A stretch of 33,919 bases of DNA from a virus (lineage: Duplodnaviria > Heunggongvirae > Uroviricota > Caudoviricetes): IMG/VR virus record IMGVR_UViG_2579778797_000012; one strand, 5' to 3'. Shown here in pieces: positions 8,032-27,776 of this stretch. The notes under the pieces are model-generated. The model ran no database searches and was not told where the DNA came from. It saw only the letters and a list, made by a program, of their open reading frames with translations. Every line of letters begins with the position of its first letter. The first letter of the stretch is position 1. Position numbers and translations under genes: made by a program.

Positions 8032-8091
8032 CCCACGACAACCATAAATTCTGGCATGACATTTTGTTTGAAAAGCAATAAGTGAGTAATG

Positions 8092-10515
8092 ATGAAAATC
8101 CATACCACAGAGGCGCTCATGAAGGCTGAAATCAGCCGTAGAAGTCTGATGAAAACCTCCGCACTTGGCAGTCTTGCGCTGGCAAGCAGTGCTTTCACTC
8201 TGCCATTTTCCCAAATGGTCCGGGCGGCAGAGGCTCCGGTAGAAGAGAAAGCGGTCTGGAGTTCCTGCACCGTTAACTGCGGGAGCCGCTGTCTGTTACG
8301 TTTGCATGTGAAAGATGACACCGTGTACTGGGTGGAGTCTGATACGACAGGTGACGACGTCTACGGTAATCATCAGGTTCGAGCGTGTTTACGCGGGCGC
8401 TCTATCCGCCGACGGATGAATCATCCTGATAGGTTGAAATATCCCATGAAGCGCGTCGGCAAGCGCGGTGAAGGTAAATTTGAACGGATAAGTTGGGACG
8501 AAGCCCTGGATACCATCAGTGATAATCTTCGGCGGATCCTGAAAGATTACGGCAATGAGGCTGTACATGTCCTGTACGGAACAGGCGTAGATGGCGGAAA
8601 CATCACCAACTCAAACGTCCCGTACCGTCTGATGAACTCTTGCGGTGGTTTTCTCAGTCGCTATGGCAGCTACAGTACCGCACAGATCAGTGCCGCAATG
8701 AGTTATATGTTCGGTGCCAATGATGGCAACAGCCCGGATGATATCGCCAATACGAAACTGGTCGTTATGTTCGGAAATAACCCGGCAGAAACGCGGATGA
8801 GCGGCGGTGGTGTCACTTACTACGTCGAGCAAGCCCGCGAACGTTCAAACGCACGCATGATCGTCATCGATCCACGTTATAACGACACTGCTGCCGGGCG
8901 TGAAGATGAATGGCTGCCCATTCGCCCTGGCACCGATGGCGCACTGGCCTGTGCGATTGCCTGGGTACTGATTACTGAAAACATGGTCGATCAGCCATTT
9001 CTCGACAAATATTGTGTTGGTTACGATGAAAAAACGCTGCCCGCCAACGCACCACGTAACGCGCATTATAAAGCCTATATTCTGGGCGAAGGGCCTGACG
9101 GCATAGCTAAAACGCCGGAATGGGCAGCAAAAATCACCAGCATCCCGGCAGAAAAAATTATCCAGTTGGCACGAGAGATCGGTTCAGCAAAACCTGCTTA
9201 TATTTGTCAGGGTTGGGGGCCACAACGACATTCCAACGGCGAGCAAACATCCCGCGCTATTGCCATGCTTTCCGTTCTCACCGGCAACGTCGGCATAAAC
9301 GGCGGCAACTCAGGCGTACGCGAAGGTAGCTGGGATCTGGGGGTAGAATGGTTCCCGATGCTCGAGAATCCTGTTAAAACGCAGATTTCCGTCTTTACAT
9401 GGACAGATGCCATCGACCATGGTACGGAAATGACCGCGACCCGTGATGGTGTTCGTGGAAAAGAAAAACTGGATGTCCCCATCAAGTTTTTATGGTGCTA
9501 CGCCAGTAACACATTGATCAATCAACATGGCGACATCAATCACACCCATGAGGTGCTTCAGGATGACAGCAAGTGCGAGATGATTGTTGGCATTGACCAC
9601 TTCATGACGGCCTCGGCTAAGTATTGCGATATCCTGTTGCCCGACCTGATGCCAACAGAGCAAGAAGACCTTATCTCTCATGAATCTGCAGGGAATATGG
9701 GCTATGTGATCCTCGCCCAACCCGCAACCTCAGCAAAATTTGAACGCAAACCCATCTACTGGATGCTGAGTGAAGTCGCCAAACGCTTAGGACCAGACGT
9801 TTATCAAACCTTTACTGAAGGTCGCAGTCAGCATGAATGGATCAAATATCTCCATGCGAAAACGAAGGAACGTAACCCTGAGATGCCCGACTACGAGGAG
9901 ATGAAAACGACCGGGATCTTTAAGAAAAAATGCCCGGAAGAACACTACGTCGCTTTCCGCGCATTCCGTGAAGATCCACAGGCAAACCCGTTGAAAACAC
10001 CTTCGGGGAAAATCGAAATTTATTCTGAACGACTGGCGAAGATTGCAGATACCTGGGAATTGAAAAAAGATGAAATTATTCATCCCCTTCCTGCGTATAC
10101 CCCAGGTTTTGATGGCTGGGACGATCCCCTGCGGAAAACCTATCCACTGCAGTTAACGGGCTTCCATTACAAAGCGCGTACCCACTCCAGCTACGGCAAT
10201 ATTGATGTGTTACAGCAGGCCTGCCCACAAGAGGTGTGGATCAACCCCATTGATGCTCAGGCACGCGGTATCCGTCATGGCGATACCGTGCGGGTATTTA
10301 ACAATAATGGAGAAATGCTGATTGCCGCAAAAGTGACTCCGCGTATTCTGCCTGGCGTTACCGCCATCGGGCAAGGTGCGTGGCTTAAAGCGGATATGTT
10401 TGGTGACCGGGTCGATCACGGCGGCAGTATCAATATTCTGACCTCTCACCGCCCTTCACCGCTGGCAAAGGGAAACCCGTCGCACAGCAATCTTGTCCAG
10501 ATCGAAAAGGTTTAA
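8092..10515 (+). CDS. ynfF: YnfF, Tat-exported DMSO-reductase-family molybdoenzyme catalytic subunit (paralog of ynfE)
   Basis: 807 aa from the second Met. Twin-arginine signal (SRRSLMKTSALGSLALA), CTVNCGSRC cluster, collinear with YnfE throughout. Confidence 0.9.
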   Translation: MKIHTTEALMKAEISRRSLMKTSALGSLALASSAFTLPFSQMVRAAEAPVEEKAVWSSCTVNCGSRCLLRLHVKDDTVYWVESDTTGDDVYGNHQVRACLRGRSIRRRMNHPDRLKYPMKRVGKRGEGKFERISWDEALDTISDNLRRILKDYGNEAVHVLYGTGVDGGNITNSNVPYRLMNSCGGFLSRYGSYSTAQISAAMSYMFGANDGNSPDDIANTKLVVMFGNNPAETRMSGGGVTYYVEQARERSNARMIVIDPRYNDTAAGREDEWLPIRPGTDGALACAIAWVLITENMVDQPFLDKYCVGYDEKTLPANAPRNAHYKAYILGEGPDGIAKTPEWAAKITSIPAEKIIQLAREIGSAKPAYICQGWGPQRHSNGEQTSRAIAMLSVLTGNVGINGGNSGVREGSWDLGVEWFPMLENPVKTQISVFTWTDAIDHGTEMTATRDGVRGKEKLDVPIKFLWCYASNTLINQHGDINHTHEVLQDDSKCEMIVGIDHFMTASAKYCDILLPDLMPTEQEDLISHESAGNMGYVILAQPATSAKFERKPIYWMLSEVAKRLGPDVYQTFTEGRSQHEWIKYLHAKTKERNPEMPDYEEMKTTGIFKKKCPEEHYVAFRAFREDPQANPLKTPSGKIEIYSERLAKIADTWELKKDEIIHPLPAYTPGFDGWDDPLRKTYPLQLTGFHYKARTHSSYGNIDVLQQACPQEVWINPIDAQARGIRHGDTVRVFNNNGEMLIAAKVTPRILPGVTAIGQGAWLKADMFGDRVDHGGSINILTSHRPSPLAKGNPSHSNLVQIEKV

Positions 10516-10525
10516 GGAGTAGCCC

Positions 10526-10639
10526 ATGACCACACAATATGGATTTTTTATCGATTCCAGCCGCTGTACTGGCTGTAAAACCTGCGAACTGGCGTGCAAA
10601 GATTTTAAAGTTGGTTACGTATCGTTTAAAATCAATTAG
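10526..10639 (+). pseudogene. ynfG: ynfG (4Fe-4S ferredoxin-type subunit), 5' fragment only; similarity ends about 10609
   Basis: MTTQYGFFIDSSRCTGCKTCELACKDFK matches the YnfG/DmsB N-terminus. The frame then reads VGYVSFKIN-stop instead of the expected DLGPEVSFRRIYEY..., and no remainder of ynfG is present downstream in the window. Confidence 0.85.
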
Positions 10640-10683
10640 ATAGCCCGTCATTTCTGCGCTCACACGTCCCAACATTGAAAAAC

Positions 10684-10717
10684 ATGCAAAGCTTTGTAAG
10701 CCGATGCAAAGCTTTGT
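10684..10717. promoter_or_regulatory. Two copies of ATGCAAAGCTTTGT (10684-10697, 10704-10717), each containing the 10-bp palindrome CAAAGCTTTG; candidate protein-binding sites
   Basis: Exact 14-bp direct repeat spaced 20 bp start to start, in non-coding DNA about 75 bp inside the ynfG junction. Confidence 0.35.
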
Positions 10718-11054
10718 GTGTCTCACTTTTGTCCCAATACCAATCCGAATCCACCCTTTGTCATCATTGAGAAATGGCAAGGAAGAAAAGGATGTTACTG
10801 CACGATTTGACAAATCCGCCAGAGCTATCGCATACTGATCGCACTGAACAAATAAGCGGTCTCCGCACCCGATAGCTTTGCGGCTTTTTTATGCCTGCAA
10901 TTTGGCATAGTTACATCCGTACAAAGGTCGGGTGGAGAGGCGTAATACAACACCCGCAAGGGGAATATGCCCAGAGCTTCTTATTTGGCTCAGTTGACAC
11001 CCGACCGCCAGCTACTAACTGGCGGTTATAAACTAAACAAATAAGGAGGTCATC

Positions 11055-11339
11055 ATGACCAGTCAACTCATCCCCGTATTCAACGGTTCTATCTCAAACC
11101 AAGCAGCCCTTCTATGCAATGCTCGCAATCTACACGCTTTCCTTGGGGTTGGTAAACGCTTTGCATCGTGGATAACAGAACGTATTGCTGAATATGGTTT
11201 CGTTGAAAATCAGGACTATATGATTGCTTCCCAAATTCGGGAAGCAAAAGGTAGAGGCGGTCACAACCGCAAGGAATACCACCTCACCCTCGACACAGCC
11301 AAAGAGCTTGCGATGGTTGACGACTGCGTCCAATACTGA
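11055..11339 (+). CDS. Short AntA/AntB-type antirepressor-domain protein (94 aa), paralog of the next gene
   Basis: MTSQLIPVFNGSISNQAALLCNARNLHAFLGVGKRFASWITERIAEYGFVENQDY... resembles the AntA N-terminal domain. Strong RBS (AAGGAGG, 11043-11049). The C-terminus (YHLTLDTAKELAMV) is shared with the downstream paralog. Confidence 0.5.
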   Translation: MTSQLIPVFNGSISNQAALLCNARNLHAFLGVGKRFASWITERIAEYGFVENQDYMIASQIREAKGRGGHNRKEYHLTLDTAKELAMVDDCVQY

Positions 11340-11588
11340 CTATACTCCGCGCCGAGGCCTCGAAAACCTCCCAAAAGCGGATTAAACCAACCCCGTCAGT
11401 GTTGGATTTTTTATGCCTGTTATTCAGTGATAGCACAGTGTGCGGTCACATCCCCGATCAATGTCGGGAGGGCGACGAATACAACACCCGCAAGGGGAAT
11501 AAGTCCGCGGTATCTTTTGGGCCGTTTCGAGCCTCCCGGCACCACATCTTGTGGTGGCATTTCTCGAAAAAAGCCAAAGGAGGTCATC

Positions 11589-12218
11589 ATGACCACTCAA
11601 CTCATCCCTGTGTTTGAAGGTACAATCTCAAATGAACCTACGCTTCTGGTGAACGCGCGTGATTTGCATGGATTTTTAGAGGTAGGTAAAGATTTTTCTA
11701 ACTGGATACGGGCCAGGCTAAACGAGTATGGATTCGTAGAAAATTTAGACTACATTCTATTTTCGCCAAATTTGGCGAAAACTCCAGGCCGCCGCCGCAA
11801 GGATTACCACCTCACCCTCGACACAGCCAAAGAGCTTGCGATGGTTGAACGTAACGAAAAAGGCCGCCAGATACGCCGCTACTTCATCGAGTGCGAAAAG
11901 AAACTTCGCAACATTCAGCCAGTACAAGCAGAACCACAGCCGCAATTCACAGCCGAGGAAATAATCCTCCTCTGCTACATGCAGCTCTGGATGGAAAAAG
12001 CCCAGGACCTTAGCAAGCAGCTGTACCCCATAATGAAAGAGCTGAACTCCTCATACACGAACAAGCTGTATGACATTGCGTTTGAGACTATCTACATGGT
12101 GACGAAGAACAGAGATGTGCTACTGAGAGAGGCGGCACGGCTTGACCAGTCGAGTTTCGTAGTTCAGCGGGCCAGACCAATGCTGAAAAGCCTGCGGGCA
12201 AGACAATTTGAATTCTGA
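11589..12218 (+). CDS. AntA/AntB-type antirepressor-domain protein (209 aa from the RBS-supported start)
   Basis: MTTQLIPVFEGTISNEPTLLVNARDLHGFLEVGKDFSNWIRARLNEYGFVENLDY... RBS AAAGGAGG directly upstream of the ATG at 11589. The track ORF starting at 11427 is an RBS-less upstream extension. Confidence 0.55.
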   Translation: MTTQLIPVFEGTISNEPTLLVNARDLHGFLEVGKDFSNWIRARLNEYGFVENLDYILFSPNLAKTPGRRRKDYHLTLDTAKELAMVERNEKGRQIRRYFIECEKKLRNIQPVQAEPQPQFTAEEIILLCYMQLWMEKAQDLSKQLYPIMKELNSSYTNKLYDIAFETIYMVTKNRDVLLREAARLDQSSFVVQRARPMLKSLRARQFEF

Positions 12219-12222
12219 TACC

Positions 12223-12247
12223 AAAGGAGCTTCGGCTCCTTTTTTTA
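12223..12247 (+). terminator. Rho-independent terminator after the second antA-like gene
   Basis: GGAGC-TTCG-GCTCC hairpin (12226-12239) followed by a 7-T run. Confidence 0.7.
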
Positions 12248-12414
12248 TACCTGAACGACAACGCCGCTGAAATCGAAGAGTTAATACAATAAAGAGAAGA
12301 GCTCAGTACATTAGATAAACATTTTTTATCATTATCTCATTGCCTTTATTCAAAAAAATAGTTACATAACGTTACTAGGTAAAATGCAAACCCTCGCTAT
12401 TTTTATCAGATTGT

Positions 12415-13641
12415 ATGCCGGTAACTATAACAAAAATCAGAACTGGAGAAGATGTTTTGTCAGCAGCCATTCACCGCATTGAATGGTTGTTTGAAACATT
12501 CTCTTCTGTATGTTTATCTTTTTCTGGCGGTAAAGATTCCACTGTACTTTTCCATCTTGTAGCCGAAGTGGCCTACAGGAAGAAACGTCGTTTTTCTGTA
12601 TTGTTCATTGACTGGGAAGCCCAGTATCAATGCACCATTGATCATATACAGAAGATGCGGATGATGTACCAAGATGTAACAGATACCTTTTACTGGGTTG
12701 CACTTCCCCTGACGACAGTAAATGGTGTCTCGCAGTTTCAGCCTGAGTGGATATGCTGGGAGCCCGGTGTAGAGTGGGTTCGACAGCCACCGGAAGATGC
12801 TATTACTGATATGGCGTATTTCCCCTTTTACCGCTACGCCATGACTTTTGAAGAATTTGTCCCAGCTTTTTCTTCCTGGTTCGCAAGTAACCAATGTAGC
12901 GTGGCAATACTGACTGGAGTCCGCGCGGATGAATCTCTTAACAGATTTATGGGACTGGTTTCCCAACGAAAACTGAGATATGCAGATGATAAACCCTGGA
13001 CCACGGCGTCACCTGAAGGTTTTTACTACACCATGTATCCGCTGTATGACTGGAAAACCAACGATATCTGGGTATATAACGCTAAAACCTGTGCAATCTA
13101 CAATCCTCTGTATGATTTGATGTACCGTGCAGGCATTCCTCTACATAATATGCGTGTCTGTGAGCCTTTTGGCCCGGAACAGCGTAAGGGACTATGGCTT
13201 TATCATGTTCTGGAGCCAGAAACTTGGGCACGGATGTGTGAACGAGTATCTGGTGCTGCCAGTGGGGCTCTTTATGCCAATGAAAGCGGGGCCTATTTTG
13301 CCCTGCGTAAACGGATGTCAAAACCATCCCATCATACATGGCGCAGCTATGCGTTCTTCCTGCTGGACGTAATGCCGGAAAGAACGGCTGAACACTACCG
13401 CAACAAGATAGCAGTCTACCTGCGCTGGTATCAGAACCGGGGATTCCCGGATGATATCCCGGATGAACAGGAAAATGATCTGGGCTGCCGGGATGTTCCC
13501 TCCTGGCGACGTATTTGTAAGACTCTCATAAAGAATGATTTCTGGTGCCGAACGCTCTCCTTCAGCCCCAACAAACCCCGGCACTATGAACGTTACCTGC
13601 AGCGTATGAATGAAAGGAGGAAGGAATGGGGAATTCTGTGA
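12415..13641 (+). CDS. ibrA: PAPS-reductase-like (PP-loop ATP pyrophosphatase fold) protein, IbrA/YbdN-like
   Basis: 408-aa ORF with the PP-loop motif SFSGGKDS near the N-terminus and a long C-terminal extension. Overlaps the downstream ParB-like gene by 16 nt. Gene symbol assigned by family resemblance only. Confidence 0.6.
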   Translation: MPVTITKIRTGEDVLSAAIHRIEWLFETFSSVCLSFSGGKDSTVLFHLVAEVAYRKKRRFSVLFIDWEAQYQCTIDHIQKMRMMYQDVTDTFYWVALPLTTVNGVSQFQPEWICWEPGVEWVRQPPEDAITDMAYFPFYRYAMTFEEFVPAFSSWFASNQCSVAILTGVRADESLNRFMGLVSQRKLRYADDKPWTTASPEGFYYTMYPLYDWKTNDIWVYNAKTCAIYNPLYDLMYRAGIPLHNMRVCEPFGPEQRKGLWLYHVLEPETWARMCERVSGAASGALYANESGAYFALRKRMSKPSHHTWRSYAFFLLDVMPERTAEHYRNKIAVYLRWYQNRGFPDDIPDEQENDLGCRDVPSWRRICKTLIKNDFWCRTLSFSPNKPRHYERYLQRMNERRKEWGIL

Positions 13642-14270
13642 CACCAGAGGTGGAGGTGCTGAGCAAGATGATTCGACAGTACTTCAGTCAGGAACAATCT
13701 GAAGAGAAAACCATACAGGCCCTGAACCATCTCCGCTGCGTACTCCATGAGATCAGCCCCTTTGCTCAAGAACCAGTGGACTGTGTGCTGTGGGTAAAAG
13801 CGGATGAAATTGTCGCTAACGATTATAATCCCAATGTCATGGCCCCAAGCGAAAAAAAATTACTGAAACAATCTCTGGAAAAAGACGGTTTTACTCAACC
13901 AATTGTTGTTTCGGAAGAAACAAGCCATTACCTGGTGGTGGATGGTTTTCATAGGCAGTTACTAGGTAGAAGAACAGTTACTGGAAAACGCCTGAAAGGC
14001 TGGCTACCAGTAACCTGTATTAATCCAGACCGAAAGGGACAAACCTCACGTATTGCCGCGACTATCCGACATAACAGAGCCAGGGGGAAACACCAGATAA
14101 CCTCAATGTCTGATATTGTCAGAGATCTTTCACGTCTTGGCTGGACTGATGAACGTATCGGAACAGAACTGGGGATGGACCAGGATGAAGTTCTGAGGTT
14201 AAAGCAGATTAGCGGGCTAACGGAGTTATTTCAGCAGGCAGATTTCAGCCCTGCATGGACTGTTACATAA
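13626..14270 (+). CDS. ibrB: ParB/sulfiredoxin-fold (ParB-like nuclease domain) protein, IbrB/YbdM-like
   Basis: 214-aa ORF with a DGFHR motif (VVDGFHRQLLG) typical of ParB/Srx-fold proteins. Strong RBS AGGAGG at 13615-13620. Translationally coupled to the upstream gene. Confidence 0.6.
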   Translation: MGNSVTPEVEVLSKMIRQYFSQEQSEEKTIQALNHLRCVLHEISPFAQEPVDCVLWVKADEIVANDYNPNVMAPSEKKLLKQSLEKDGFTQPIVVSEETSHYLVVDGFHRQLLGRRTVTGKRLKGWLPVTCINPDRKGQTSRIAATIRHNRARGKHQITSMSDIVRDLSRLGWTDERIGTELGMDQDEVLRLKQISGLTELFQQADFSPAWTVT

Positions 14271-14358: not shown

Positions 14359-14883
14359 CTACCTCAGATCACCTAATAATATATCAAGATTATTTTGCGC
14401 ATTAATGCTATTCGCCATTACTGTTGCTGCTTCTGGCAACTTTCCAAGAGCAATAAATATATTCTTAAGGCTGATTGGAATTGATGAACCATGCGGATCG
14501 CGCCACTCACCGCAAATTCTGTGAGTTTCATCACAAAGCCTGAACGCATCCCAACCTCCATATTGACCAAAAATTATGTCCATTGACTCTATTTCTGCGG
14601 GCGATAACTCCCCCAGCTCATCAACAGAAGAAAATGTACGCCACATTTCAACCTTATGATCCGCTACATCAGATATCCATGATTCCCACGGACTGTACTC
14701 GTTTTCACTTCCATCCTTAACCAAAGAATATGTCTGCGATAAAACGGGTCCTTTGTTCATAGAGAAATAATGATCACCACTAATGGGAAAACCATACAAC
14801 TCCATTGCTTTGCGGTCAGAGAGATACATCAGCTTAATGAAACGCATAGATCCGCCATGTTTTTTCAGCAAATACGCTGCCAT
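14359..14883 (-). CDS. DUF4065 (Panacea/SocA-like) domain protein
   Basis: 174-aa ORF. FIKLMYLSDRKAMELYGFPISGDHYFSMNKGPVLSQTY fits the conserved KLqKLLY...GPV core of DUF4065 antitoxin-like proteins (from memory of the family profile). No strong RBS at the annotated start. Confidence 0.5.
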   Translation of the reverse strand: MAAYLLKKHGGSMRFIKLMYLSDRKAMELYGFPISGDHYFSMNKGPVLSQTYSLVKDGSENEYSPWESWISDVADHKVEMWRTFSSVDELGELSPAEIESMDIIFGQYGGWDAFRLCDETHRICGEWRDPHGSSIPISLKNIFIALGKLPEAATVMANSINAQNNLDILLGDLR

Positions 14884-15033: not shown

Positions 15034-18000
15034 TTAATCCACTCCCACTTTTTTGTTGTACTCGCGGTTAAAGCGATCCACGGCAACCTTCATATCCCGC
15101 TCTACCGATTTCACCATCGCCGCCTGCTGCGCCAGACTGAGAGAACTGTCGGCATAAATGGCATCGCGCTGTTTGCGCAAATCCTTCAGTCTCTTCCGGG
15201 TATCCTGCATAAGCCCGTTCATCAACAATTTTCCGTTGTTCTCGTCAATGAACGCCGTTCTTTCTGCACCGGTCAGACTCTTCAGCTCTGCGTGATACTG
15301 CGCAACCTCTGTCATCCGGTCGTACATCTTCTGCTGGTCTGCATACGGCATCACCTCACCCGAAATTTTCCCCAGGAAGGGCACCTGCTGCTCCGGTATA
15401 TCAATACCGTTCAGCGATTTCACCGCCGCATCTGTGGTTTTGGAAATGAAGCGCCCTGTCCCTCCGGAGATATAGTCAATCCAGAATTTCAGCGATTCCG
15501 GTGTGATATCCACCGCGCCGGGACGATACTGGCTGCCACCTGAGAACGCATTCAGCCAGGATGCAAACGCCTTGTACGCCTCAGGCGTTGAACGTCTGCC
15601 CAGCTGGCTGTCCGGTTTCGGTGTGCCAAATGGCATGTTCTCCTGGTAAATCTGCGCCCCCATGAAGTTTTCATTCATGGCAAGGTTCGCAAACGGACGC
15701 AGAATGGTCGGCGCTGCATTTTTCAGCAATGCCCCGGACAGTGTTTCCGACGTTTCACTGCCCACAGGACTGAATGCCCCCAGGATACCACCGACAACAT
15801 TACCGGCAGCACGTGAAGCAGTCAGGTCGCCCGCTGCCACACCTTCAGCAGTATGCCCGAGCAGGAAGAAAACGTTGTACCCGTAAGGCAGAGGAATACT
15901 CCAGTACTCTCCGGCCTTGCCCCCGAACACCGATTTCATAATGACGAGGTTACGCTCTTTCACATGAGACGGCACCTTGTCATACCAGTTAACCCCGTCA
16001 TCATCCTCCCCCGCAACACTGCGGTTAAGCGAGCCAAGCAGATAACCCGCTCCCACAGCTGCAAGCGCGATTTTCTGCGGTACATTGAGATTCTTCCAGC
16101 GAAGGCGCTCCGGTAACGGCCCGTCGCCATTAAGATGTCCGAGCGTTCTCACCAGGTTTGCGGTCCCCTGAATGCTGGCGTTGGCAAACATATACAGCGA
16201 GTTCATCAGCGCTCCCTGCTCACCACGACGGTTAAAGTTCACCGTCATGTTTTTGGCAAGAGATGCCGCCTGCTGGCGTGACAAACCGGCATCACGGGCG
16301 TGTTTATAGGCAGAAAGACGCAGAGCGTTTTCAACCGCGCCGTTGGCATCCTCGACCAGGTTCAGGAACGAATGCCATGCACCGATACTCTGGCCTTTCC
16401 ATCCTCCCTTCGCCAGCGATACAAGGCGATCCATTTCCTTCTGCTGGCCTTCAAGGTCACCCATGTTAAACCAGCCGGTTTTACCTCCGTCCTCAACAAA
16501 CTCTTTCCACACCTTCTGCCACTGCGCACCGTTGCCCGTGAGGGTTTTACCACGCAGACTGGCGTATACGGCAGACATGGCAGACCGGCTGTCTTTCACC
16601 ACAGCCAGGGCGGATAAGTTATCCAGCCCTTTCAGTTTACCGTCGCTCCTTCCCTGCTCCGCCTTCAGGTTCATCACCGCCGTCTGCACGTCACGGATGA
16701 AGTTACTGACCAGGAATTCCGGGTTATACGACGTGTTCACCGTTGCCAGGAAGCGGTTAACTTTCCCCAGCGTGCGGATTACGGCGTTACTGGTTTCCGG
16801 TCCCATATTCTTCATCGCACGCATCAGGCGCGGATCATGGAGTTTGATGTAGTACGTTTTGCCGTTCTTTTTGGTGGTGAAGTACCGGTCTGCCATCATT
16901 GCCATCGGTACAGGACGTTCGACAACTTCGTGACGGGTTTCACCGGTTTCCGGAACAACACGCTCTGCAATCGCACGCATGGTGTCCGGTCGCTCATTGG
17001 TGAATACCTGCCAGTAATCCTTGTCTGGATTATCCTGTACCAGTTTCAGGAAGGCGTTACCTACTTCATTTTTGCGATTGCGGATCAGCGATTCGCTCAA
17101 GTCCTGTATCGCCTGAGTGGACGGAGACTGTGCGCGGGATGCACGCCCCATGGCCTGCCTGCTTTCACGTCCGCCGATAGTGAAGCCTTTACCTGTACGG
17201 GGCAGTGACACCACACCGTCAACATCCTGGCCTTTCAGAGGAACGTAGTAACGGTAGGCGTTCTGCCAGGCATCCACCACACCGCTCTCTTCCAGTCCGG
17301 CCTCACGGATAAGCTCACGGCGACGGGCCAGCATATCGTCAACAATCCCTGCCAGACGGTCATACTGTGCCTGTTTGCCACTGTTACGCACACGCTGCAT
17401 GATTTCCGCCGCTTCCGCGTTGGTCATCCCCGAACCGCCGTCCGGCATTTTCGGGTTGATTTTCGCGATATGCGCGTTACGTTCCGGCGCGTGACGGGCG
17501 TAGAGGTACTCATCCAGATCGGCCTGCGCAATTTTGTAGTCCGCCAGTAATTTAGCCAGCGGCTGAACATAGCGCTCCTTCATCACGTTCAGGTCGTTTT
17601 CCGCCTTCCCGTGGAAGAGTTCTTCCGCCATATAAGCGTTGTTACTGTCGTCTATTTTTCCGCCAGTTTTACGGATATTCTCCTGAACAGCTTTCAGCAC
17701 CTGGAATTTATCCTGCATCTGGCGCACAAAACGCGATGCAATTGTCTCTTCCGGTGTCAGACTGCTGGTACGGGAGTAATGCGGCCCCTTGCGAATATCT
17801 TCAGGATAGAGTATTTTATCCGCAGAGCCGCGATAAGAATGTTCCCCTTTGGGCAATTGGAGTCCTCTGTGCAGAAGGTTATCGCGGCTTAATTTTTCTC
17901 TCCGGTACAACGTTAACCCGGTCATTTCCATACTCTTCAGTTTTTTTCCATTTTCTGTACCGTAAACAGAAGCTACCTTGTTGATTTCCAGACGCGACCG

Positions 18001-21000
18001 GACAGCCTTCATGTGTACCGCTGACACCACCGGATCACCATTTTTATCCACGGCATCAAGCAGCATCACAACCGCATTTCTTTCTGTCGCTGAGTGGTAA
18101 ATTGCATCCGGATCGTGCATCAGTTCCGGTAGTCTCTCGATAACATCCATCGGCACCACATGTTTCACACCATTGGTGGCCTTACGCACAGTGTCGCGGG
18201 AGATAACCAGCGGCAAATCTGGTGCGCCAAGGTGACGCAATACCGGCGGCGTACGCCCGATGTTTACCGTTAAATCCGTTGAGCGCAGAGACTTCATCAT
18301 TCTGGCAAGGTCATCACGATAACGCTCGCCCTCACCTTCCGGCACTTTGAACGGATCAGGCTTACCGCTACGGGAGTACTGAGACGATGCGCCAGCGCCA
18401 TCCTCACGCGGCGTGTAACCTTCCCGCACACGCTGGCCTAACGTGCGAATAGTTTCGCGAACAAGTCTGATATCGTTCAGCTCTGTCGGCTTCAGTAACC
18501 CCGTGCGACGCAGTACCCCTTTGACCAGGGCAACAACACGCTCCCACGCCGCCACAAATTTATTCGGCTGTTTCTCCGCCATATGTGCCAGAAATTCACC
18601 CGCCTGCACTTCCGGTGATTCCTTACCATAAGACGCATCAACCTTACGCCAGGCTTCACGGATGGTGGCGTTATCACTGTCACGGGTTTTCAGCACGGTC
18701 TTAATAATCGTCTGATATTCCGCTGGCGTGACTACATGCTCCATTGCATGGTGGATAATCTCGTGACGCAGCTTCTCGCGAACGGTCCGCCCGTCAGGAA
18801 TGTTATCCGCCACCAGGACAATTTCACGTTTATCCGGACGATAGAACGCATGCCCCCTGCCGTAACCGTCGAACGATTCACCCGCCAGCGCTTCAGCCTC
18901 TTTCTGTGACTTCACCACGCGGACCTTCAGGTCACTGTCCTTAATGCCACTCATCACGCCACGGGCAACCGCTTCAACCTGCGGGACCGGGCTGCCTTTG
19001 GCTTCCGCACTGCGGTTAACATCCGAAATGAGATTGCCTTCAGGTGTGCGGGTCACGCCCTTACGGGAATAAAACGCAACGCCCTTGTCCGTCTCACGGG
19101 TTTTCAGCGTACTGAACAGGTGATCGAATGCATCACGAATACCGCCATCCAGTTCCGCATTCGTCGGATAAGCCCAGGTGTTATCTGTGTTGTGCTCAGG
19201 TGCCTTACGGATATTGACCAGATAATCATTCTCCACGCCAGCCGTACGCGCTTTATCCTGAACATAACGCTCAAAGGCACGCGCCGCCATTTCAACATCC
19301 GTTGACCAGTACGGTTTTGAGCGCACCTCATCGAGAAGCGCTGAACGACGCGGCATGTCACTGCTGTTGATCGCTTTCATCACGCCTTTAAACGCGTCGT
19401 AAACCTCCTGACGTACCGGATATTCCGCATCAACATATCTGCCGTCTTTAAATACGCGCCCGGCACGCTGTGCTTCCGTCATATAGTCGCCACCTGACGT
19501 GATCTTCCCGTCAGTGGAAACATCATAACGACCAAAATAATTATCCAGTGAATGGAACCATTCGTGGGCCAGCGCCCCCGGTCCGTTACCTTTTGTCAGG
19601 TTGATTGCCACCTCACCCGGCTCATAGTGTGCCGCCGCCTTACCCTTACCACGGGCACCAAAAGCAAGCCCAAGACGACCGTTCAGAGAAAGCGCTTTTG
19701 TCGGCACGTTCAGCACATCAGCCAGGTCATGCAGCGAGTCATAAGCCCGGTTCAAATCAGCCTGACGACGCGGACCTTCCACATAATTACCAAACTGCAC
19801 ACCACGAAAACCAAACGCATCACTGAACTGCTCCGGCGAAACATCCCCCTTGCGGCGTTCTGGTCCGGTACGATCGCGGTTGGTGGCGTTACGCTGCTCC
19901 TCACGCGAAATCTCCCGCATCTCCTTCACATGACGAACAAGCTCATCACGATGTGAATCAATGTACTTACGCGCATCACTGGCTGACTTAAAGCCACCTC
20001 TCACCCGCATTTTGTTTTTGCCATAAGCGATAAAAATATCGCCACTGCGGGTATTCCGGTAAACGTCAAAGCGGATTTTGTCATCCGGTGACGGTGCCGT
20101 TTTTTCATCTCCTTTCGCCTGTGACTTTTCCTCCAGCTCTGCAAACCAGACTTTCGCCTTTGTCAGTAATTCATCCCTGCTTTCCGAGAAAAAGAGGTTA
20201 GTCCCCTTATTGTCCTTATTGCGCAGTGAATAAAGTTTCTGTGGCGGATCGTAACGCTTCCCTCCTGCCGCCTGATACACACCCGATACCACCCGATAAG
20301 CAGAAGCCTTGTCCATCTGTGAGGGTGGCAGAGTGCGTAACAGTTGCCAGGTATCCGCGTAACGGGAGGGCATTCTGCCTTCCATCCATTCTGCGAGGCG
20401 TTTCGCGCTGACCGTTCCGTTCAGCATTTCCGATACACTGTGTCGTACTTTTTTTACGCTCTCCCCCCAGCCAGCCGTATTGTGTTTCGTCTTCGCCGGA
20501 ATATCGCTACGATACAGCGCTATCATTGCCAGGGTGTCAGCATCAGCCCCTTCGCTCGCCAGTTTTGCGTAGTCCGGTTTCGGGAACAGTTTGCTCAGCG
20601 GCTGCGTGGCATAATCCCTGTCTTCCAGCGTTTTACCCAGTGTTTCAGCAAGCTGTGCATAACGGTGTTTTGCCGCGCCCTTAATTTCTTCACCAAAGTC
20701 TTCAATTTTCGCACCACGCGCCTGCTGGTGAGTGCTCGGTTTATCTACCGGCATCGGCACCTCAGTATCCGGAACATCGGTTATGGTCTGGCGATTATCC
20801 CCGGTCTGTCTGCGTGCTTCTGCCTGCTGTGCCAGTTCCGGAAGGGAGTCACGAACCATACGAGGGAGTGATTCAGGCTGTGGCATATCAACCCCACGCT
20901 GACTTTCAGGTGCAGGAAGTCCTTCACGCACTGGTGCTGTGGCGTTCTGCTCATCCGGTGACGGCAGACCACGACGAACCGGTTCGCCCTCCAGTATTTC

Positions 21001-26617: not shown

Positions 26618-26995
26618 ATCGGCTGAACCTCAGCAACCAGTTGACGGGGACTTTCGTCCCCGTCGCGGTTTTCCTACTGCTTACACTGTAAGAACGCCGC
26701 AAACTCCGCTCCCCACAAATTCAGCCGGAACTCACACAACGAGCCGTGTAACATCCAGATGGTGAAGATTACCGTCATACAAATTGTGACGGTGATGAGC
26801 GATTTTTGCGACATAACGCTTGTCTCCTGAGTGGAGAGGCGCTAACCTACTACTTGTGAAGGTTGTACGGTCAGGGCCTCGGGTTAACATTAAAGTTGAC
26901 TCGGGGCCTTTCCACATCAGGCCTTCAGGTTCACCTTCCAGCCATCAGCCGAAAGGCACCCGCGCATAATCTACGATTTTTGCCCTGCACGGGCA

Positions 26996-27044: not shown

Positions 27045-27776
27045 TCAGAATTTCAGGCCAATACCTACAACAACCCCGCTCGTGCGCCAGTCACCAGATC
27101 CGGAGCTTTCATACGCGACATCCATAGCAACACTTTCATTCAGGTTAAATTGTGCACCAGCAGCCCATGCAAGTGCTGTTTTTTTCGTACTGTTGCTTTC
27201 AGAAAATCCACCGGTACTGTTAATGTTGTCCTTAATTTTCAGGTCAGCGGTAACTTTAGCTACGCCCATACCAGCCATTGCATACACACTGAGGTATTCG
27301 TTAAACCGCCACGAAGGACCCGCTAACAGGCTCCAGTAATTCGCTCTGATATCTGTTCTTCCTGAAGCTGCCGGATTTTTAACCTCTCTGGATTCATCTC
27401 CTGGGTTAATATCAATAAATGCCTGCGCATTAGTCATAGAACGCGCCCATGTAAAAGATGTTATAACACCAATCTCATCCGTTATCTCATAACGATACCT
27501 GATGCTCATCCCCTGAGGAGATTTGCCTTTGCCATCATGCCCCCGGACAGAAGCATCTGCATATTCGCCTGAATTGAAGTAGTGTCTGTTTGTAAAACGG
27601 TTAAAAGTATCAAGATTATAAAGACTTAAATCCTTAACAAAATTGTTCAGTCCAGAGAGCTGAAGATGAGCGTATCCGAAAGAAACTGTACTGTCACCTT
27701 GTGCTGCACAGGCAGGGGCTGCTACAAAACTCATCACAAAAGTTGTGCACGCAAAAATAATTCTGGTATGTTTCAT
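27045..27776 (-). CDS. lom: Lom/Ail/PagC-family outer-membrane beta-barrel protein
   Basis: Signal peptide (MKHTRIIFACTTFVMSFVAAPACAAQG) and a C-terminal ...YESSGSGDWRTSGVVVGIGLKF closely resembling the lambda Lom / Ail-family terminal strand. Confidence 0.75.
   Translation of the reverse strand: MKHTRIIFACTTFVMSFVAAPACAAQGDSTVSFGYAHLQLSGLNNFVKDLSLYNLDTFNRFTNRHYFNSGEYADASVRGHDGKGKSPQGMSIRYRYEITDEIGVITSFTWARSMTNAQAFIDINPGDESREVKNPAASGRTDIRANYWSLLAGPSWRFNEYLSVYAMAGMGVAKVTADLKIKDNINSTGGFSESNSTKKTALAWAAGAQFNLNESVAMDVAYESSGSGDWRTSGVVVGIGLKF

What the first reader, a model, noticed from the sequence alone, without database searches (positions are those of the whole stretch)
12415..14270. Overlapping PAPS-reductase-like and ParB/Srx-fold gene pair (ibrA/ibrB-like) with a DndC/DndB-like domain logic
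The first gene encodes a PP-loop protein (SFSGGKDS) with a long C-terminal extension. The second, overlapping by 16 nt and with a strong RBS, encodes a ParB-like protein with a DGFHR motif. A PP-loop ATP pyrophosphatase paired with a ParB/DGQHR-type DNA-binding protein is the same domain pairing as DndC/DndB in DNA phosphorothioation systems. IbrA/IbrB-type pairs have been described genetically as activators of prophage eib genes in E. coli, and an Eib-like gene lies 18 kb away in this window, but their biochemical activity is unresolved. The pair could be a nucleic-acid-modifying or conflict module carried as phage cargo rather than a conventional transcription factor.
Basis: partly seen in the sequence, partly recalled or inferred. 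Interest (0 to 1): 0.7.

Follow-up and report, generated by a model that had tools for sequence, protein, structure and literature searches.

The report
Phage-borne ibrA/ibrB enzyme pair
This is the already-named ibrA/ibrB gene pair, carried as swappable cargo at the end of an E. coli prophage; it is annotated in databases, but its chemistry is unknown, and its conservation across phages points to an enzyme acting on DNA, not an ordinary gene switch.

Summary
Two overlapping genes lie at 12415-13641 and 13626-14270: a PP-loop PAPS-reductase-like protein with a DUF3440 tail, and a ParB/Srx-fold protein with DGFHR.

It is a known family. The proteins are 91%/87% identical to the E. coli O157 island IbrA/IbrB and 57%/61% to K-12 YbdN/YbdM. 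The DNA is 99.7% identical to phage PhiR5_2, where the genes are labelled IbrA/IbrB. The pair sits in a variable cargo slot of a 933W-like prophage inserted in ynfG.

New here:
- The pair is adjacent in 75 of 76 evaluable viral contigs (either gene order), 79 of 79 enterobacterial loci, and 8 of 8 cultured phages from four bacterial phyla.
- It usually lies among replication, DNA-methylase or terminase genes. Recurrent extras are an SNF2 helicase, a second ParB, a small methyltransferase-like protein, GNAT, an EctC-cupin fusion and an unknown protein X.
- IbrA has an invariant PP-loop but no family-conserved cysteine, so it is neither DndC-like nor CysH-like.
- IbrB's motifs, including the helix-turn-helix-like tail, are nearly invariant across phyla. 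That is unlike a site-specific regulator.

Best reading (about 0.4): a DNA-directed ATP-dependent modification module, with eib activation as a side effect. The biochemistry remains untested. The gene family is already known, and interest is moderate.

The parts
12223..12242 (+). Intrinsic terminator ending the upstream ant (antirepressor) gene; it makes ibrAB a separate transcription unit.
   Evidence: 8-bp stem AAAGGAGC-TTCG-GCTCCTTT followed by TTTTAT. The ant ORF ends at 12218 (AntA/P22_AR_C domains).
12243..12414 (+). AT-rich intergenic leader and presumed weak or regulated promoter of ibrAB. A -10-like TAAAAT lies at 12380-12385; there is no good -35 and no clear Shine-Dalgarno for ibrA.
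   Evidence: Sequence read directly. GC is 0.40 in 12200-12799. The consensus scan found no strong sigma-70 site here. The promoter assignment is inference only.
12415..13641 (+). ibrA: 408-aa PP-loop ATP-pyrophosphatase-type enzyme. The PAPS-reductase/FAD-synthase-like domain covers about aa 17-238, and the helical DUF3440 domain covers aa 240-408.
   Evidence: AlphaFold model pLDDT 73. Foldseek hits to the FAD synthase PAPS domain, CysH, CysD and TtuA at E~1e-7 cover the N-terminal part only. 91% identical to O157 IbrA and 57% to K-12 YbdN.
12517..12540 (+). PP-loop motif SFSGGKDS (aa 35-42), the ATP alpha/beta-phosphate binding site.
   Evidence: S37, G39, K40, D41 and S42 are conserved in 76-78 of 80 full-length family representatives. 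D66/E68 are conserved in 80 of 80, and R170/E173/S174 in 78 of 80 (alignment A3).
13132..13638 (+). DUF3440 C-terminal domain of IbrA: helical, with conserved R247, W271, R277, W364 and D375. Function unknown; possibly a substrate- or partner-binding domain.
   Evidence: Pfam PF11922 3.3e-33. Conservation. No solved homologue by profile search. Model confidence is low here.
13615..13620 (+). Shine-Dalgarno AGGAGG for ibrB, inside the 3' end of ibrA; indicates translational coupling.
   Evidence: Sequence. A 16-nt overlap is the commonest arrangement in Enterobacterales (34 of 76 loci; 28 nt in 22 more, as in K-12 ybdNM).
13626..14270 (+). ibrB: 214-aa ParB/Srx-fold protein (core about aa 50-155) with a C-terminal helix-turn-helix-like region (about aa 160-200) and an N-terminal helical extension.
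   Evidence: 87% identical to O157 IbrB and 61% to K-12 YbdM. The exact protein occurs on at least 1000 contigs.
13941..13955 (+). DGFHR motif (aa 106-110). It aligns with the GERR box of ParB and is the Srx/DndB-type 'GxHR' variant, a presumed NTP-phosphate binding site.
   Evidence: D106, G107, H109 and R110 are invariant in alignment A5, which spans phages of four phyla. Aligned to GERR of ParB 4UMK.
14067..14093 (+). RHNRARGKH motif (aa 148-156), the family signature of IbrB-like proteins.
   Evidence: R148, H149, N150, R151, A152, R153, G154 and H156 are invariant in A5. The actinophage and Bacillus-phage orthologues have RINRAKGTH.
32594..33706 (-). YadA-anchor trimeric autotransporter (Eib-like) on the same prophage. 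It is a candidate regulatory target by analogy with published eib activation; no link was shown here.
   Evidence: YadA_anchor 3.8e-16. Weak match to EibD 2XZR, 8.5e-8. No shared repeat or parS-like motif with the ibrAB region.

Best explanation
The two genes are ibrA and ibrB (identity confidence above 0.95). They are carried as an autonomous cargo cassette near the end of a 933W-like prophage inserted in ynfG.

Proposed mechanism, inferred and not shown:
1. IbrB is a ParB/Srx-fold protein with a conserved NTP-type pocket (DGFHR, RHNRARGxH) and a helix-turn-helix-like tail. It binds DNA without much sequence specificity and recruits or activates IbrA.
2. IbrA is a cysteine-independent PP-loop enzyme. 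It spends ATP (giving AMP + PPi) to adenylate a group on the DNA, either a base carbonyl as TilS does on RNA, or a phosphate as CysD and FAD synthase do on small molecules. A nucleophile can then replace the adenylate.
3. In other phages, accessory enzymes (a methyltransferase-like protein, GNAT, an EctC-type cupin, an SNF2 helicase, a second ParB) elaborate or assist the reaction.

The resulting mark would protect phage or island DNA from host restriction or defence systems. As a by-product it would change transcription of silenced horizontally acquired genes, which would explain the published activation of prophage eib genes.

Shown: folds, motifs, pairing, distribution and genomic contexts. 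Inferred: the substrate (DNA), the chemistry and the biological pay-off.
For: Identity:
- 99.7-99.8% DNA identity to RefSeq E. coli prophages and to phage PhiR5_2, where the genes are annotated IbrA/IbrB.
- 91%/87% protein identity to the O157 island pair.

Enzyme character:
- The PP-loop and PAPS-reductase motifs are near-invariant in 80 family representatives.
- The fold matches adenylyl-transferring or nucleotide-binding PAPS-clade enzymes.

Obligate pairing:
- IbrB is adjacent in 75 of 80 viral loci. Four of the others are cut by a contig end and one has a deletion.
- Gene order can be A-B or B-X-A.
- 79 of 79 enterobacterial loci are paired.
- 8 of 8 cultured phages of Proteobacteria, Firmicutes, Actinobacteria and Bacteroidetes are paired.

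DNA-metabolism context:
- Neighbours include Dcm, a ParB-N6/N4 methylase, NinG, RusA, ERF, SNF2 and DUF1376 (Pfam), plus DnaB-like and SSB-like genes identified by eye only.
- In actinophages and Bacillus phages the cassette sits next to terminase, with a second ParB and a small SAM-methyltransferase-like gene.
- Orthologous SNF2 helicases lie upstream in Flavobacterium, Streptococcus and gut phages.
- An EctC-cupin is fused to IbrB in phage Gaia.
- A Gp111-like domain appears fused to IbrA in P0242, judged by eye only; Pfam did not call the N-terminal domain.

Against a site-specific regulator:
- IbrB, including its helix-turn-helix-like tail, is 40-60% identical across phyla, with 38 invariant positions.

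Precedents:
- A vibriophage PAPS-domain/Dam fusion is part of an anti-Dnd determinant (bioRxiv 10.1101/2021.05.05.442762).
- A phage ParB is required for a thymine dioxygenase to act on dsDNA (PMC13229309).
- DpdB and DndB are ParB-like partners of DNA-modifying enzymes.

Cargo status:
- The same slot in Stx phage POCJ13 holds unrelated genes.
- The cassette has its own upstream terminator.
Against: - No modified nucleoside, substrate or activity is known for any family member.
- The only published phenotype is transcriptional activation of eib (Sandt et al. 2002, recalled from memory and cited in PMC7649339).
- The ParB/Srx fold also occurs in small-molecule kinases; SbnI was a weak hit at 0.023. 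The substrate therefore need not be DNA.
- Chromosomal copies such as citR-ybdNM in K-12 (repressed by CitR, PMC9068703) and Listeria lmo1309/1310 suggest a cellular role not tied to phage DNA.
- The E. coli version lacks all the accessory enzymes.
- The IbrB structure prediction failed (pLDDT 44), so the pocket is inferred from sequence only.
- Neighbourhood associations were not tested against a background frequency.
Confidence: 0.4

Rival explanations
1. Regulatory switch. IbrB is a VirB/KorB/ParB-like nucleotide-dependent DNA clamp that counter-silences H-NS-repressed, AT-rich horizontally acquired genes such as eib. IbrA makes, loads or recycles its nucleotide-type ligand, or otherwise licenses it. 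No covalent nucleic-acid modification is involved.
For: - The only published phenotype is transcriptional activation requiring both genes (Sandt 2002, from memory; restated in PMC7649339).
- IbrB has a ParB N-domain plus an HTH-like tail.
- An Eib-like gene is on the same prophage.
- Canonical ibrAB islands carry a PerC-family regulator immediately downstream.
- K-12 ybdNM is under CitR control, and that paper reports citR as H-NS-regulated.
- PAPS-clade enzymes such as CysD and FAD synthase make adenylylated small molecules.
Against: - The pair is conserved in virulent phages of Gram-positive bacteria and Bacteroidetes, which lack H-NS-type targets.
- The ParB box II GERRxR is replaced by DGFHRQ.
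- No parS-like repeat is shared between the ibrAB region and the eib-like gene region.
- Partition-ParB models score far below cutoff (TIGR00180 11.9 vs 58.45).
- The association with methylases, terminase and helicases fits DNA chemistry better.
Confidence: 0.22
2. Host-protective conflict module. The prophage or island uses IbrAB as a defence, superinfection-exclusion or toxin-antitoxin-like system against other phages, for example by modifying or depleting a nucleotide or by marking self DNA for an unlinked effector.
For: - It occupies a variable cargo slot at the prophage end beside a Panacea/SocA gene and a polyvalent LPD protein.
- Canonical ibrAB islands also carry NotI restriction-modification and AAA/ATP-dependent nuclease genes.
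- TASmania lists the Listeria pair as a candidate toxin-antitoxin system by guilt by association.
- ParB-superfamily proteins act in several defence systems.
Against: - No PADLOC model matches IbrB. IbrA gives only weak superfamily hits to BrxP and DndC.
- No nuclease or other effector domain is present.
- The pair is common in virulent phages, inside replication or packaging modules, which is typical of counter-defence or DNA metabolism, not host defence.
- Syntenic chromosomal copies are found across Enterobacterales.
Confidence: 0.12
3. RNA-directed enzyme. IbrA modifies a tRNA or another RNA, as TilS, TtuA or ThiI do, with IbrB as a specificity or activating subunit. This would retune translation or evade RNA-targeting defences.
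For: - Most characterised PP-loop enzymes that act on nucleic acids are tRNA-modifying. TtuA, TilS and NcsA are among the structural neighbours, and TilS_N gives a weak hit.
- No conserved cysteine is compatible with TilS-like amination chemistry.
Against: - The closest structural neighbours are the PAPS/FAD-synthase clade, not the tRNA enzymes.
- No recognisable RNA-binding domain (THUMP, PUA, TilS C-terminal) was found.
- The ParB partner and the methylase, terminase and helicase neighbourhoods point to DNA.
Confidence: 0.1
4. Auxiliary metabolic gene. IbrA is a genuine PAPS or APS reductase that boosts sulfur assimilation during infection, as the database name 'phosphoadenosine phosphosulfate reductase' implies.
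For: - RefSeq and PHROG names.
- The Pfam PAPS_reduct domain.
- Some virome papers treat phage PAPS reductases as sulfur auxiliary metabolic genes.
Against: - CysH and APS-reductase equivalog scores are 21-33 bits against cutoffs of 154-254.
- No cysteine is conserved in the family, so the catalytic thiol is missing.
- There is an obligate ParB-like partner and a DUF3440 domain.
- No other sulfur-assimilation gene is nearby.
Confidence: 0.02

Closest known systems
IbrA/IbrB of E. coli ECOR-9 and O157:H7 genomic islands (Sandt, Hopper & Hill 2002, J Bacteriol 184:3640; recalled from memory, the paper was not held)
   Same: Same two-gene operon, same domain architecture and the same 16-nt overlap. 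91%/87% protein identity to the O157 island copy. Databases already call this pair IbrA/IbrB.
   Different: This allele is the rare one: 19 of 5426 E. coli genomes at >=99% identity, against 1920 at about 84% nucleotide identity. It is carried on an inducible 933W-like phage next to ant genes, not on an IS-flanked island with a perC-like gene. An Eib-like gene is on the same element.
YbdN/YbdM of E. coli K-12 (citR-ybdNM locus)
   Same: Paralogous pair with the same architecture and overlapping genes. 57%/61% identity. Function also unknown.
   Different: It is chromosomal and syntenic in about 27 of 79 enterobacterial loci examined. It is repressed by the adjacent LysR regulator CitR (PMC9068703) and is not phage-borne.
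DndC/DndB (and SspD/SspE) of DNA phosphorothioation systems
   Same: A PP-loop PAPS-reductase-superfamily enzyme encoded with a ParB-superfamily protein carrying a DGxHR-type motif. That system acts on DNA.
   Different: - IbrA scores far below the DndC cutoffs (17.8 vs 290.4 bits).
- IbrA lacks the Fe-S cysteines and Cys dyad that define DndC (PMC10853773).
- No DndA/D/E or Ssp partners are nearby.
- IbrB is not detected by the PADLOC models at E<=0.01.
- DUF3440 is specific to IbrA.
Vibriophage PAPS-domain/Dam fusion protein p0018 (Piel et al., bioRxiv 10.1101/2021.05.05.442762; Nat Microbiol 2022)
   Same: A phage-encoded PAPS-reductase-domain protein physically linked to DNA-methylase function and swapped as cargo. 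Experimentally it is part of a determinant that lets the phage escape a host Dnd system. Relatives of IbrA in Arthrobacter and Bacillus phages are likewise followed by a small methyltransferase-like gene.
   Different: The architecture differs: a single 479-aa fusion, with no ParB partner reported. Its relationship to the DUF3440 clade was not tested here. Its chemistry is also unknown.
ParB-dependent phage thymine dioxygenase (5mYOX176/ParB176, PMC13229309) and DpdA/DpdB
   Same: A phage or island DNA-modifying enzyme that needs a dedicated ParB-like partner to act on double-stranded DNA. This is the same logic proposed here for IbrB and IbrA.
   Different: The catalytic partners are unrelated: an Fe/2OG dioxygenase and a tRNA-guanine-transglycosylase-type enzyme, as against a PP-loop enzyme. 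ParB176 lacks an obvious DNA-binding domain, whereas IbrB has an HTH-like tail.
VirB/KorB/Noc-type CTP-dependent ParB-like regulators (from general knowledge)
   Same: A ParB N-domain plus an HTH. The output is transcriptional activation or counter-silencing of horizontally acquired genes, which is the phenotype class reported for ibrAB.
   Different: IbrB has DGFHR in place of the GERRxR CTP-binding box. It needs a PP-loop enzyme partner, and no parS-like site was found.

Membership tests
IbrA/IbrB (YbdN/YbdM) family | IbrA architecture: PP-loop PAPS_reduct domain followed by DUF3440 | tested here: met
   PF01507 1.5e-16 and PF11922 3.3e-33, both above their gathering scores. PHROG 2302 6.5e-86 and PHROG 15645 1.7e-147.
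IbrA/IbrB (YbdN/YbdM) family | IbrB-type ParB/Srx protein with NPN, DG(F/Y)HR and RHNRARGxH motifs and an HTH-like tail | tested here: met
   All motifs are present and invariant in alignment A5. PHROG 2159 4.9e-91. RefSeq names the identical protein 'IbrB-like domain-containing'.
IbrA/IbrB (YbdN/YbdM) family | The two genes are adjacent, co-oriented and translationally coupled | tested here: met
   16-nt overlap with AGGAGG. The same arrangement occurs in 79 of 79 genome loci and 75 of 76 evaluable viral loci.
IbrA/IbrB (YbdN/YbdM) family | High identity to the named ibrAB genes | tested here: met
   91%/87% to the O157:H7 island pair. 99.7% DNA identity to PhiR5_2 IbrA/IbrB. The ECOR-9 sequences themselves were not available.
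IbrA/IbrB (YbdN/YbdM) family | Activates expression of prophage eib genes | not testable with these tools
   This is a genetic phenotype. It is only known that a YadA-anchor Eib-like gene lies on the same prophage.
DndC/DndB DNA phosphorothioation | DndC equivalog-level sequence match | tested here: not met
   TIGR03183 17.8 bits against a cutoff of 290.4. PADLOC DndC 20.6 and 17.6 bits, with no stretch significant on its own.
DndC/DndB DNA phosphorothioation | Conserved cysteines: a 3-Cys 4Fe-4S centre and a sulfur-relay Cys dyad | tested here: not met
   None of IbrA's 10 cysteines is conserved in more than 50% of 80 family representatives. The one common Cys column (86%) is Ala96 in this protein. 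The feature definition comes from PMC10853773.
DndC/DndB DNA phosphorothioation | Companion genes dndA/iscS, dndD, dndE (or sspABC) in the locus | tested here: not met
   The RefSeq annotation of the 99.8%-identical region lists only ant, Panacea, LPD38 and phage structural genes. None was seen as a recurrent neighbour in 159 related loci.
DndC/DndB DNA phosphorothioation | DndB-type ParB protein (DGQHR family) | tested here: not met
   IbrB has DGFHR but matches no PADLOC family at E<=0.01. It shares only the superfamily fold.
Assimilatory PAPS/APS reductase (CysH) | Equivalog-level match and a catalytic C-terminal cysteine | tested here: not met
   NF002537 33.1 vs 154 bits, TIGR02057 32 vs 254.2 bits, TIGR02055 21.2 vs 235.3 bits. 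No conserved Cys.
Partition-type ParB (CTP-dependent clamp) | GERRxR CTP box, parS site, ParA partner, family-level score | tested here: not met
   TIGR00180 11.9 vs 58.45 bits and Noc 22.7 vs 315 bits. GERR is replaced by DGFHR. No ParA is annotated nearby. No candidate parS repeat was found.
BREX type 4 (BrxP) | BrxP-level match with BREX companion genes | tested here: not met
   PADLOC BrxP 28 bits, covering only the PP-loop region (aa 17-96) of a 779-position model. No BREX genes are in the locus.
Any catalogued anti-phage defence system (PADLOC-DB v2) | Both proteins match models of one system | tested here: not met
   IbrB has 0 families and IbrA only superfamily-level hits. The library dates from 2023.

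The most novel reading that the evidence does not exclude
IbrA/IbrB (and K-12 YbdN/YbdM) install a so-far-undescribed covalent mark on DNA. The proposed route is ATP-dependent adenylation by a cysteine-free PP-loop enzyme that is guided or activated by a dedicated ParB/Srx-fold partner. This would be a new class of epigenetic and anti-restriction chemistry, shared by phages of at least four bacterial phyla and by enterobacterial chromosomes, with lineage-specific tailoring enzymes: a methyltransferase-like protein, GNAT, an EctC-cupin and protein X.
Probability: 0.3. Interest if true: 0.85.

Novelty: already known. Interest (0 to 1): 0.45.

Why it matters
The genes themselves are catalogued: ibrAB was named in 2002, and Pfam DUF3440, 'IbrB-like' and PHROG families exist. 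About a third of E. coli genomes carry a close copy.

No paper found in the searches explains what the pair does, and K-12 itself carries a paralogue (ybdNM). The survey here shows the pair is an obligate, very strongly conserved two-protein unit in phages of Proteobacteria, Firmicutes, Actinobacteria and Bacteroidetes. It is embedded in DNA-replication, DNA-methylation and packaging gene sets, and it lacks the cysteines needed for the sulfur chemistry its database name implies.

If it is a DNA-modifying machine, three things would follow:
- a new enzymatic route to modified DNA;
- an explanation for an old observation, that prophage virulence-associated eib genes are switched on by ibrAB;
- a correction to the current labelling of many phage 'PAPS reductases' as sulfur-metabolism genes.

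The question is directly testable in E. coli with an isolated phage (PhiR5_2) that carries this exact allele.

Tried and rejected
- AlphaFold of IbrB with a 34-sequence alignment gave pLDDT 44.
- The DUF3440 half of the IbrA model is low-confidence. A profile of that half found no solved relative. The domain stays unassigned.
The closer alignment A1 was used, which biased the 79 loci towards Enterobacterales.
- An apparent IbrA-GNAT fusion (P0287) was rejected. Pfam finds no GNAT, and the C-terminus looks like a frameshifted translation. GNAT is supported only as a neighbour in 10 loci.
- Protein X, the Gp111-like protein and GNAT were searched for in the window and are absent. X has no Pfam, PHROG, NCBIfam or PDB relative. 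X, the Gp111-like protein and GNAT are unrelated to one another.
- A search for a shared repeat or parS-like site between the ibrAB region and the rest of the prophage found only chance-level matches and an ant duplication.
- The consensus promoter scan found nothing convincing upstream of ibrA.
- Literature: the terms IbrA/IbrB mostly returned retina (iBRB) papers. Sandt 2002, Piel 2022 (journal version) and Iyer 2013 are not held. Statements about Sandt 2002 and Iyer 2013 rest on memory.
- Silas et al. 2025 contains nothing on this pair.
- The sulfur auxiliary-metabolic-gene reading, and membership of Dnd, BREX-4 or partition-ParB families, were considered and rejected on the tests listed above.


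Full report
**Observation**

Two co-oriented ORFs are present exactly as described. ORF A is 12415..13641 (408 aa) and carries SFSGGKDS at residues 35-42. ORF B is 13626..14270 (214 aa) and carries VVDGFHRQ. They overlap by 16 nt, and AGGAGG (13615-13620) lies 5 nt before the second ATG.

- ORF A matches Pfam PAPS_reduct (1.5e-16) and DUF3440 (3.3e-33).
- ORF B alone matches ParB_N only weakly (1.6e-3, below the gathering score). It matches PHROG 2159 'ParB-like' at 4.9e-91.
- A 15-sequence profile of ORF B hits solved ParB (2.4e-6) and Noc (4.6e-4), aligning DGFHR with the GERR box.

**Identity and setting**

The 2.2-kb region is 99.6-99.8% identical to prophages in E. coli chromosomes, where RefSeq calls the genes 'phosphoadenosine phosphosulfate reductase' and 'IbrB-like domain-containing protein'. 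It is 99.7% identical to the isolated phage PhiR5_2, where the genes are labelled IbrA and IbrB.

- The proteins are 91%/87% identical to the pair on an O157:H7 genomic island.
- They are 57%/61% identical to K-12 YbdN/YbdM.
- The exact allele is rare: 19 of 5426 complete E. coli genomes at >=99% identity. About 1900 genomes carry the roughly 84%-identical island type.

In the window the pair lies 1.5-3.7 kb inside the end of a 933W-like short-tailed prophage inserted in ynfG, downstream of ynfEF. The local gene order is: a truncated ant, a full ant, ibrA-ibrB, then on the opposite strand a Panacea/SocA gene and a 2787-aa polyvalent LPD protein.

An intrinsic terminator follows ant (12223-12242), so ibrAB is its own transcription unit. 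The leader is AT-rich. The related Stx phage POCJ13 has unrelated genes in the same slot between ant and the LPD gene. The pair is therefore exchangeable cargo.

A YadA-anchor autotransporter with weak similarity to EibD lies 18.3 kb away on the same prophage.

**IbrA**

The N-terminal roughly 240 residues model confidently (overall pLDDT 73). They resemble the PAPS-reductase clade of PP-loop enzymes: the FAD synthase PAPS domain, APS/PAPS reductases, CysD, and more distantly TtuA and TilS, at E around 1e-7. All curated equivalogs (CysH, CysD, DndC, TilS) score 17-38 bits against cutoffs of 94-1086.

The family holds 327 representatives of 50%-identity clusters at E<=1e-30. In 80 full-length representatives:

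- The PP-loop residues S37, G39, K40, D41 and S42, together with D66/E68, GxRxxES (R170, E173, S174), the PIYDW motif and R247, are conserved in 74-80 of 80.
- No cysteine of this protein is conserved in more than half the family.
- The one frequent cysteine column (86%) is Ala96 in this protein.

The family-defining chemistry therefore cannot be the thiol or Fe-S sulfur chemistry of CysH or DndC. What remains is ATP-pyrophosphatase or adenylyl-transfer chemistry.

The helical DUF3440 half has conserved Arg and Trp residues but no detectable solved relative.

**IbrB**

Orthologues were aligned from E. coli, environmental phages, Streptococcus phage PY2, mycobacteriophage Gaia and a Flavobacterium phage. 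They share 40-60% identity and 38 invariant positions. These include NPN, DG(F/Y)HR, T(I/V)RHNRARGxH and much of the C-terminal helix-turn-helix-like segment (LGM..DE..R...G).

Such conservation across phyla suggests a protein that handles a universal ligand, such as a nucleotide, generic DNA or IbrA. A regulator that reads element-specific operators would be expected to diverge more.

The DGxHR variant of the ParB box is the one seen in Srx and DndB-type members. A weak hit to the ParB-fold serine kinase SbnI (0.023) is a reminder that the fold is not restricted to DNA work.

**Pairing and distribution**

- Of 80 viral-contig loci found with IbrA, 75 have IbrB next to it. Four of the rest are cut by a contig end, and one has a 1.2-kb deletion fusing the neighbouring gene to the last residues of IbrB.
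- Gene order is A then B (23 loci) or B then A (50 loci). In 46 of the loci a conserved 130-aa protein X of unknown family lies between B and A.
- In one-genome-per-species bacterial genomes, 246 stretches encoded a relative, mostly in Enterobacterales. All 79 loci examined are A then B. About 27 of them are syntenic with K-12 citR-ybdNM-ybdL.
- Among cultured phages, 220 records carry a relative, with hosts including Flavobacterium, Mycobacterium, Streptococcus, Arthrobacter, Bacillus, Lactobacillus, Clostridium and Listeria.
- All eight cultured phages inspected have a ParB-like gene adjacent.
- In the distant actinophage and Bacillus-phage versions the flanking gene is a clear IbrB orthologue, at 1e-38 to 1e-43 against the IbrB profile.

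**Neighbourhoods**

- In environmental phages the pair sits among replication and recombination genes: Dcm, a ParB-fused N6/N4 methylase, NinG, RusA, ERF, SNF2 and DUF1376 by Pfam, plus DnaB-like and SSB-like genes identified by eye.
- In Phaedrus, Laroye and Bacillus phage 022DV001 it sits beside terminase or at the genome end. There it has a second, canonical ParB and a small Rossmann methyltransferase-like protein.
- Orthologous SNF2 helicases precede it in Flavobacterium, Streptococcus and gut phages; an annotated DNA helicase precedes it in the Clostridium phage.
- Gaia fuses an ectoine-synthase-type cupin to IbrB.
- A Gp111-like protein precedes IbrA in five loci and appears fused to it in P0242, judged by eye.
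- GNAT genes flank IbrA in ten loci.
- None of these extras is present in the window.

The associations were not tested against a background frequency.

**Literature**

- No paper found in the searches gives a biochemical activity for IbrAB or YbdNM.
- ybdNM is repressed by the adjacent LysR regulator CitR (PMC9068703).
- ibrB is treated as an 'immunoglobulin-binding regulator' following Sandt et al. 2002 (PMC7649339). The original paper was not held.
- A vibriophage PAPS-domain/Dam fusion is part of an experimentally shown anti-Dnd determinant.
- Aca-regulated phage PAPS reductases were recently proposed as anti-defence genes.
- ParB-like partners are required by, or associated with, several DNA-modifying enzymes: 5mYOX176, DpdA and DndC.
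- From memory, Iyer et al. 2013 (NAR 41:7635) predicted PP-loop-based, lysidine-like DNA modifications in phages. The paper was not held, so whether it names this pair could not be checked.

**Mechanism**

The best-supported reading is a DNA-directed, ATP-dependent modification module. IbrB binds and prepares DNA and activates IbrA. IbrA adenylates a DNA group for substitution. The mark protects mobile-element DNA and incidentally alters transcription, hence eib activation.

- Shown: folds, invariant catalytic-type motifs, obligate pairing, phylum-wide spread and DNA-metabolism contexts.
- Inferred: substrate, chemistry and benefit.

I put this at about 0.4. The rivals are:

- a VirB-like nucleotide-switch counter-silencer with IbrA as ligand-maker (0.22);
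- a host-protective defence or toxin-antitoxin-like module (0.12);
- an RNA-modifying enzyme (0.10);
- a true sulfur-assimilation gene (0.02).

**Comparison and verdict**

Membership of the IbrA/IbrB (YbdN/YbdM) family is met on every testable feature. Membership of Dnd, CysH, partition-ParB, BREX-4 or any PADLOC system is tested and not met. The Dnd analogy is a superfamily-level resemblance in logic only.

The finding is a correct recognition of an already-known, already-annotated gene pair whose mechanism is an open question.

Noticed in passing
window 10516-10900: Prophage-chromosome junction. ynfE (5605-8031) and ynfF (8089-10515) are intact. Only an 84-nt fragment of the next gene (ynfG, a 4Fe-4S protein) remains before phage DNA starts, so the prophage is inserted in ynfG.
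   Followed up: partly
window 10876-11340 and 11404-11870: Tandem duplication of about 530 bp covering the leader and 5' part of the ant antirepressor gene. Repeats D1, D4 and D11 have spacings of 522-534 nt. It leaves a truncated ant copy (11055-11339) ahead of the full one (about 11589-12218).
   Followed up: no
window 14359-14883 (-): Panacea/SocA antitoxin-domain gene (2.5e-19), convergent with ibrB and directly downstream of the giant gene. No obvious toxin partner is present. Whether it neutralises a domain of the giant protein or anything related to ibrAB is unknown.
   Followed up: no
window 15034-23397 (-): A 2787-aa polyvalent protein with LPD5, LPD1, MuF_C and LPD38 domains and an HEWFH zincin-like motif seen by eye. 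It is probably an injected anti-defence protein typical of 933W-like phages. The homologous gene in POCJ13 is annotated as an LPD5 domain-containing protein.
   Followed up: no
window about 26690-26830 (-) and 27045-27776 (-): A Hok/Gef-family toxin gene and an Ail/Lom outer-membrane gene are annotated in the near-identical RefSeq prophage. They are further lysogenic-conversion cargo between tail genes.
   Followed up: no
L023:7598-7987 (and 45 other viral loci): Conserved roughly 130-aa protein 'X' always inserted between ibrB and ibrA in the B-X-A arrangement. Its motif is EW..SCE.NL....AWLG.AAC....ED..R.AW..L...Q...AN. It has no Pfam, PHROG, NCBIfam or PDB relative. It is absent from E. coli.
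   Followed up: partly
L022:4690-5100; protein P0242 residues 1-136: A Gp111-like small protein (weak PF07410 hit, 3.6e-4) lies immediately upstream of ibrA in five A-B type phage loci. It appears fused to the N-terminus of IbrA in P0242, judged by eye; Pfam did not call that N-terminal domain.
   Followed up: partly
L088:6296-7192 (mycobacteriophage Gaia gp104): IbrB orthologue fused to an N-terminal ectoine-synthase-type cupin (PF06339, 1.3e-32). This hints that small-molecule tailoring chemistry is attached to the system in some phages.
   Followed up: no
L170:1854-4684 (Arthrobacter phage Laroye gp5-gp8); L171:1742-5032; L169:73-2606: Extended cassette next to terminase: a canonical ParB, a PAPS-like enzyme, an IbrB orthologue and a small Rossmann methyltransferase-like protein. 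The last is homologous between the Arthrobacter and Bacillus phages by eye and has no Pfam hit.
   Followed up: partly
protein P0363 residues about 225-460: An IbrA homologue is interrupted by what looks like an intein with a LAGLIDADG-type motif (LGGIYDGEGS). It is inserted exactly in the conserved YN|xxYD motif, starting with Cys and ending ...SSN|S. This was seen by eye only; Pfam did not call it.
   Followed up: no
L083:10912-11846; L084:10909-11843: In the common island type of ibrAB, a PerC-family regulator and a 214-aa hypothetical gene always follow ibrB. AAA or ATP-dependent nuclease genes, and in one strain a NotI restriction-modification system, lie upstream.
   Followed up: no
L089:4748-11319 (E. 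coli K-12): K-12 ybdNM lies next to dsbG (sulfenic-acid reductase) and ahpCF (peroxiredoxin). This synteny is shared by roughly 16-27 enterobacterial loci. It is curious given the sulfiredoxin-like fold of YbdM, but it may be mere synteny.
   Followed up: no
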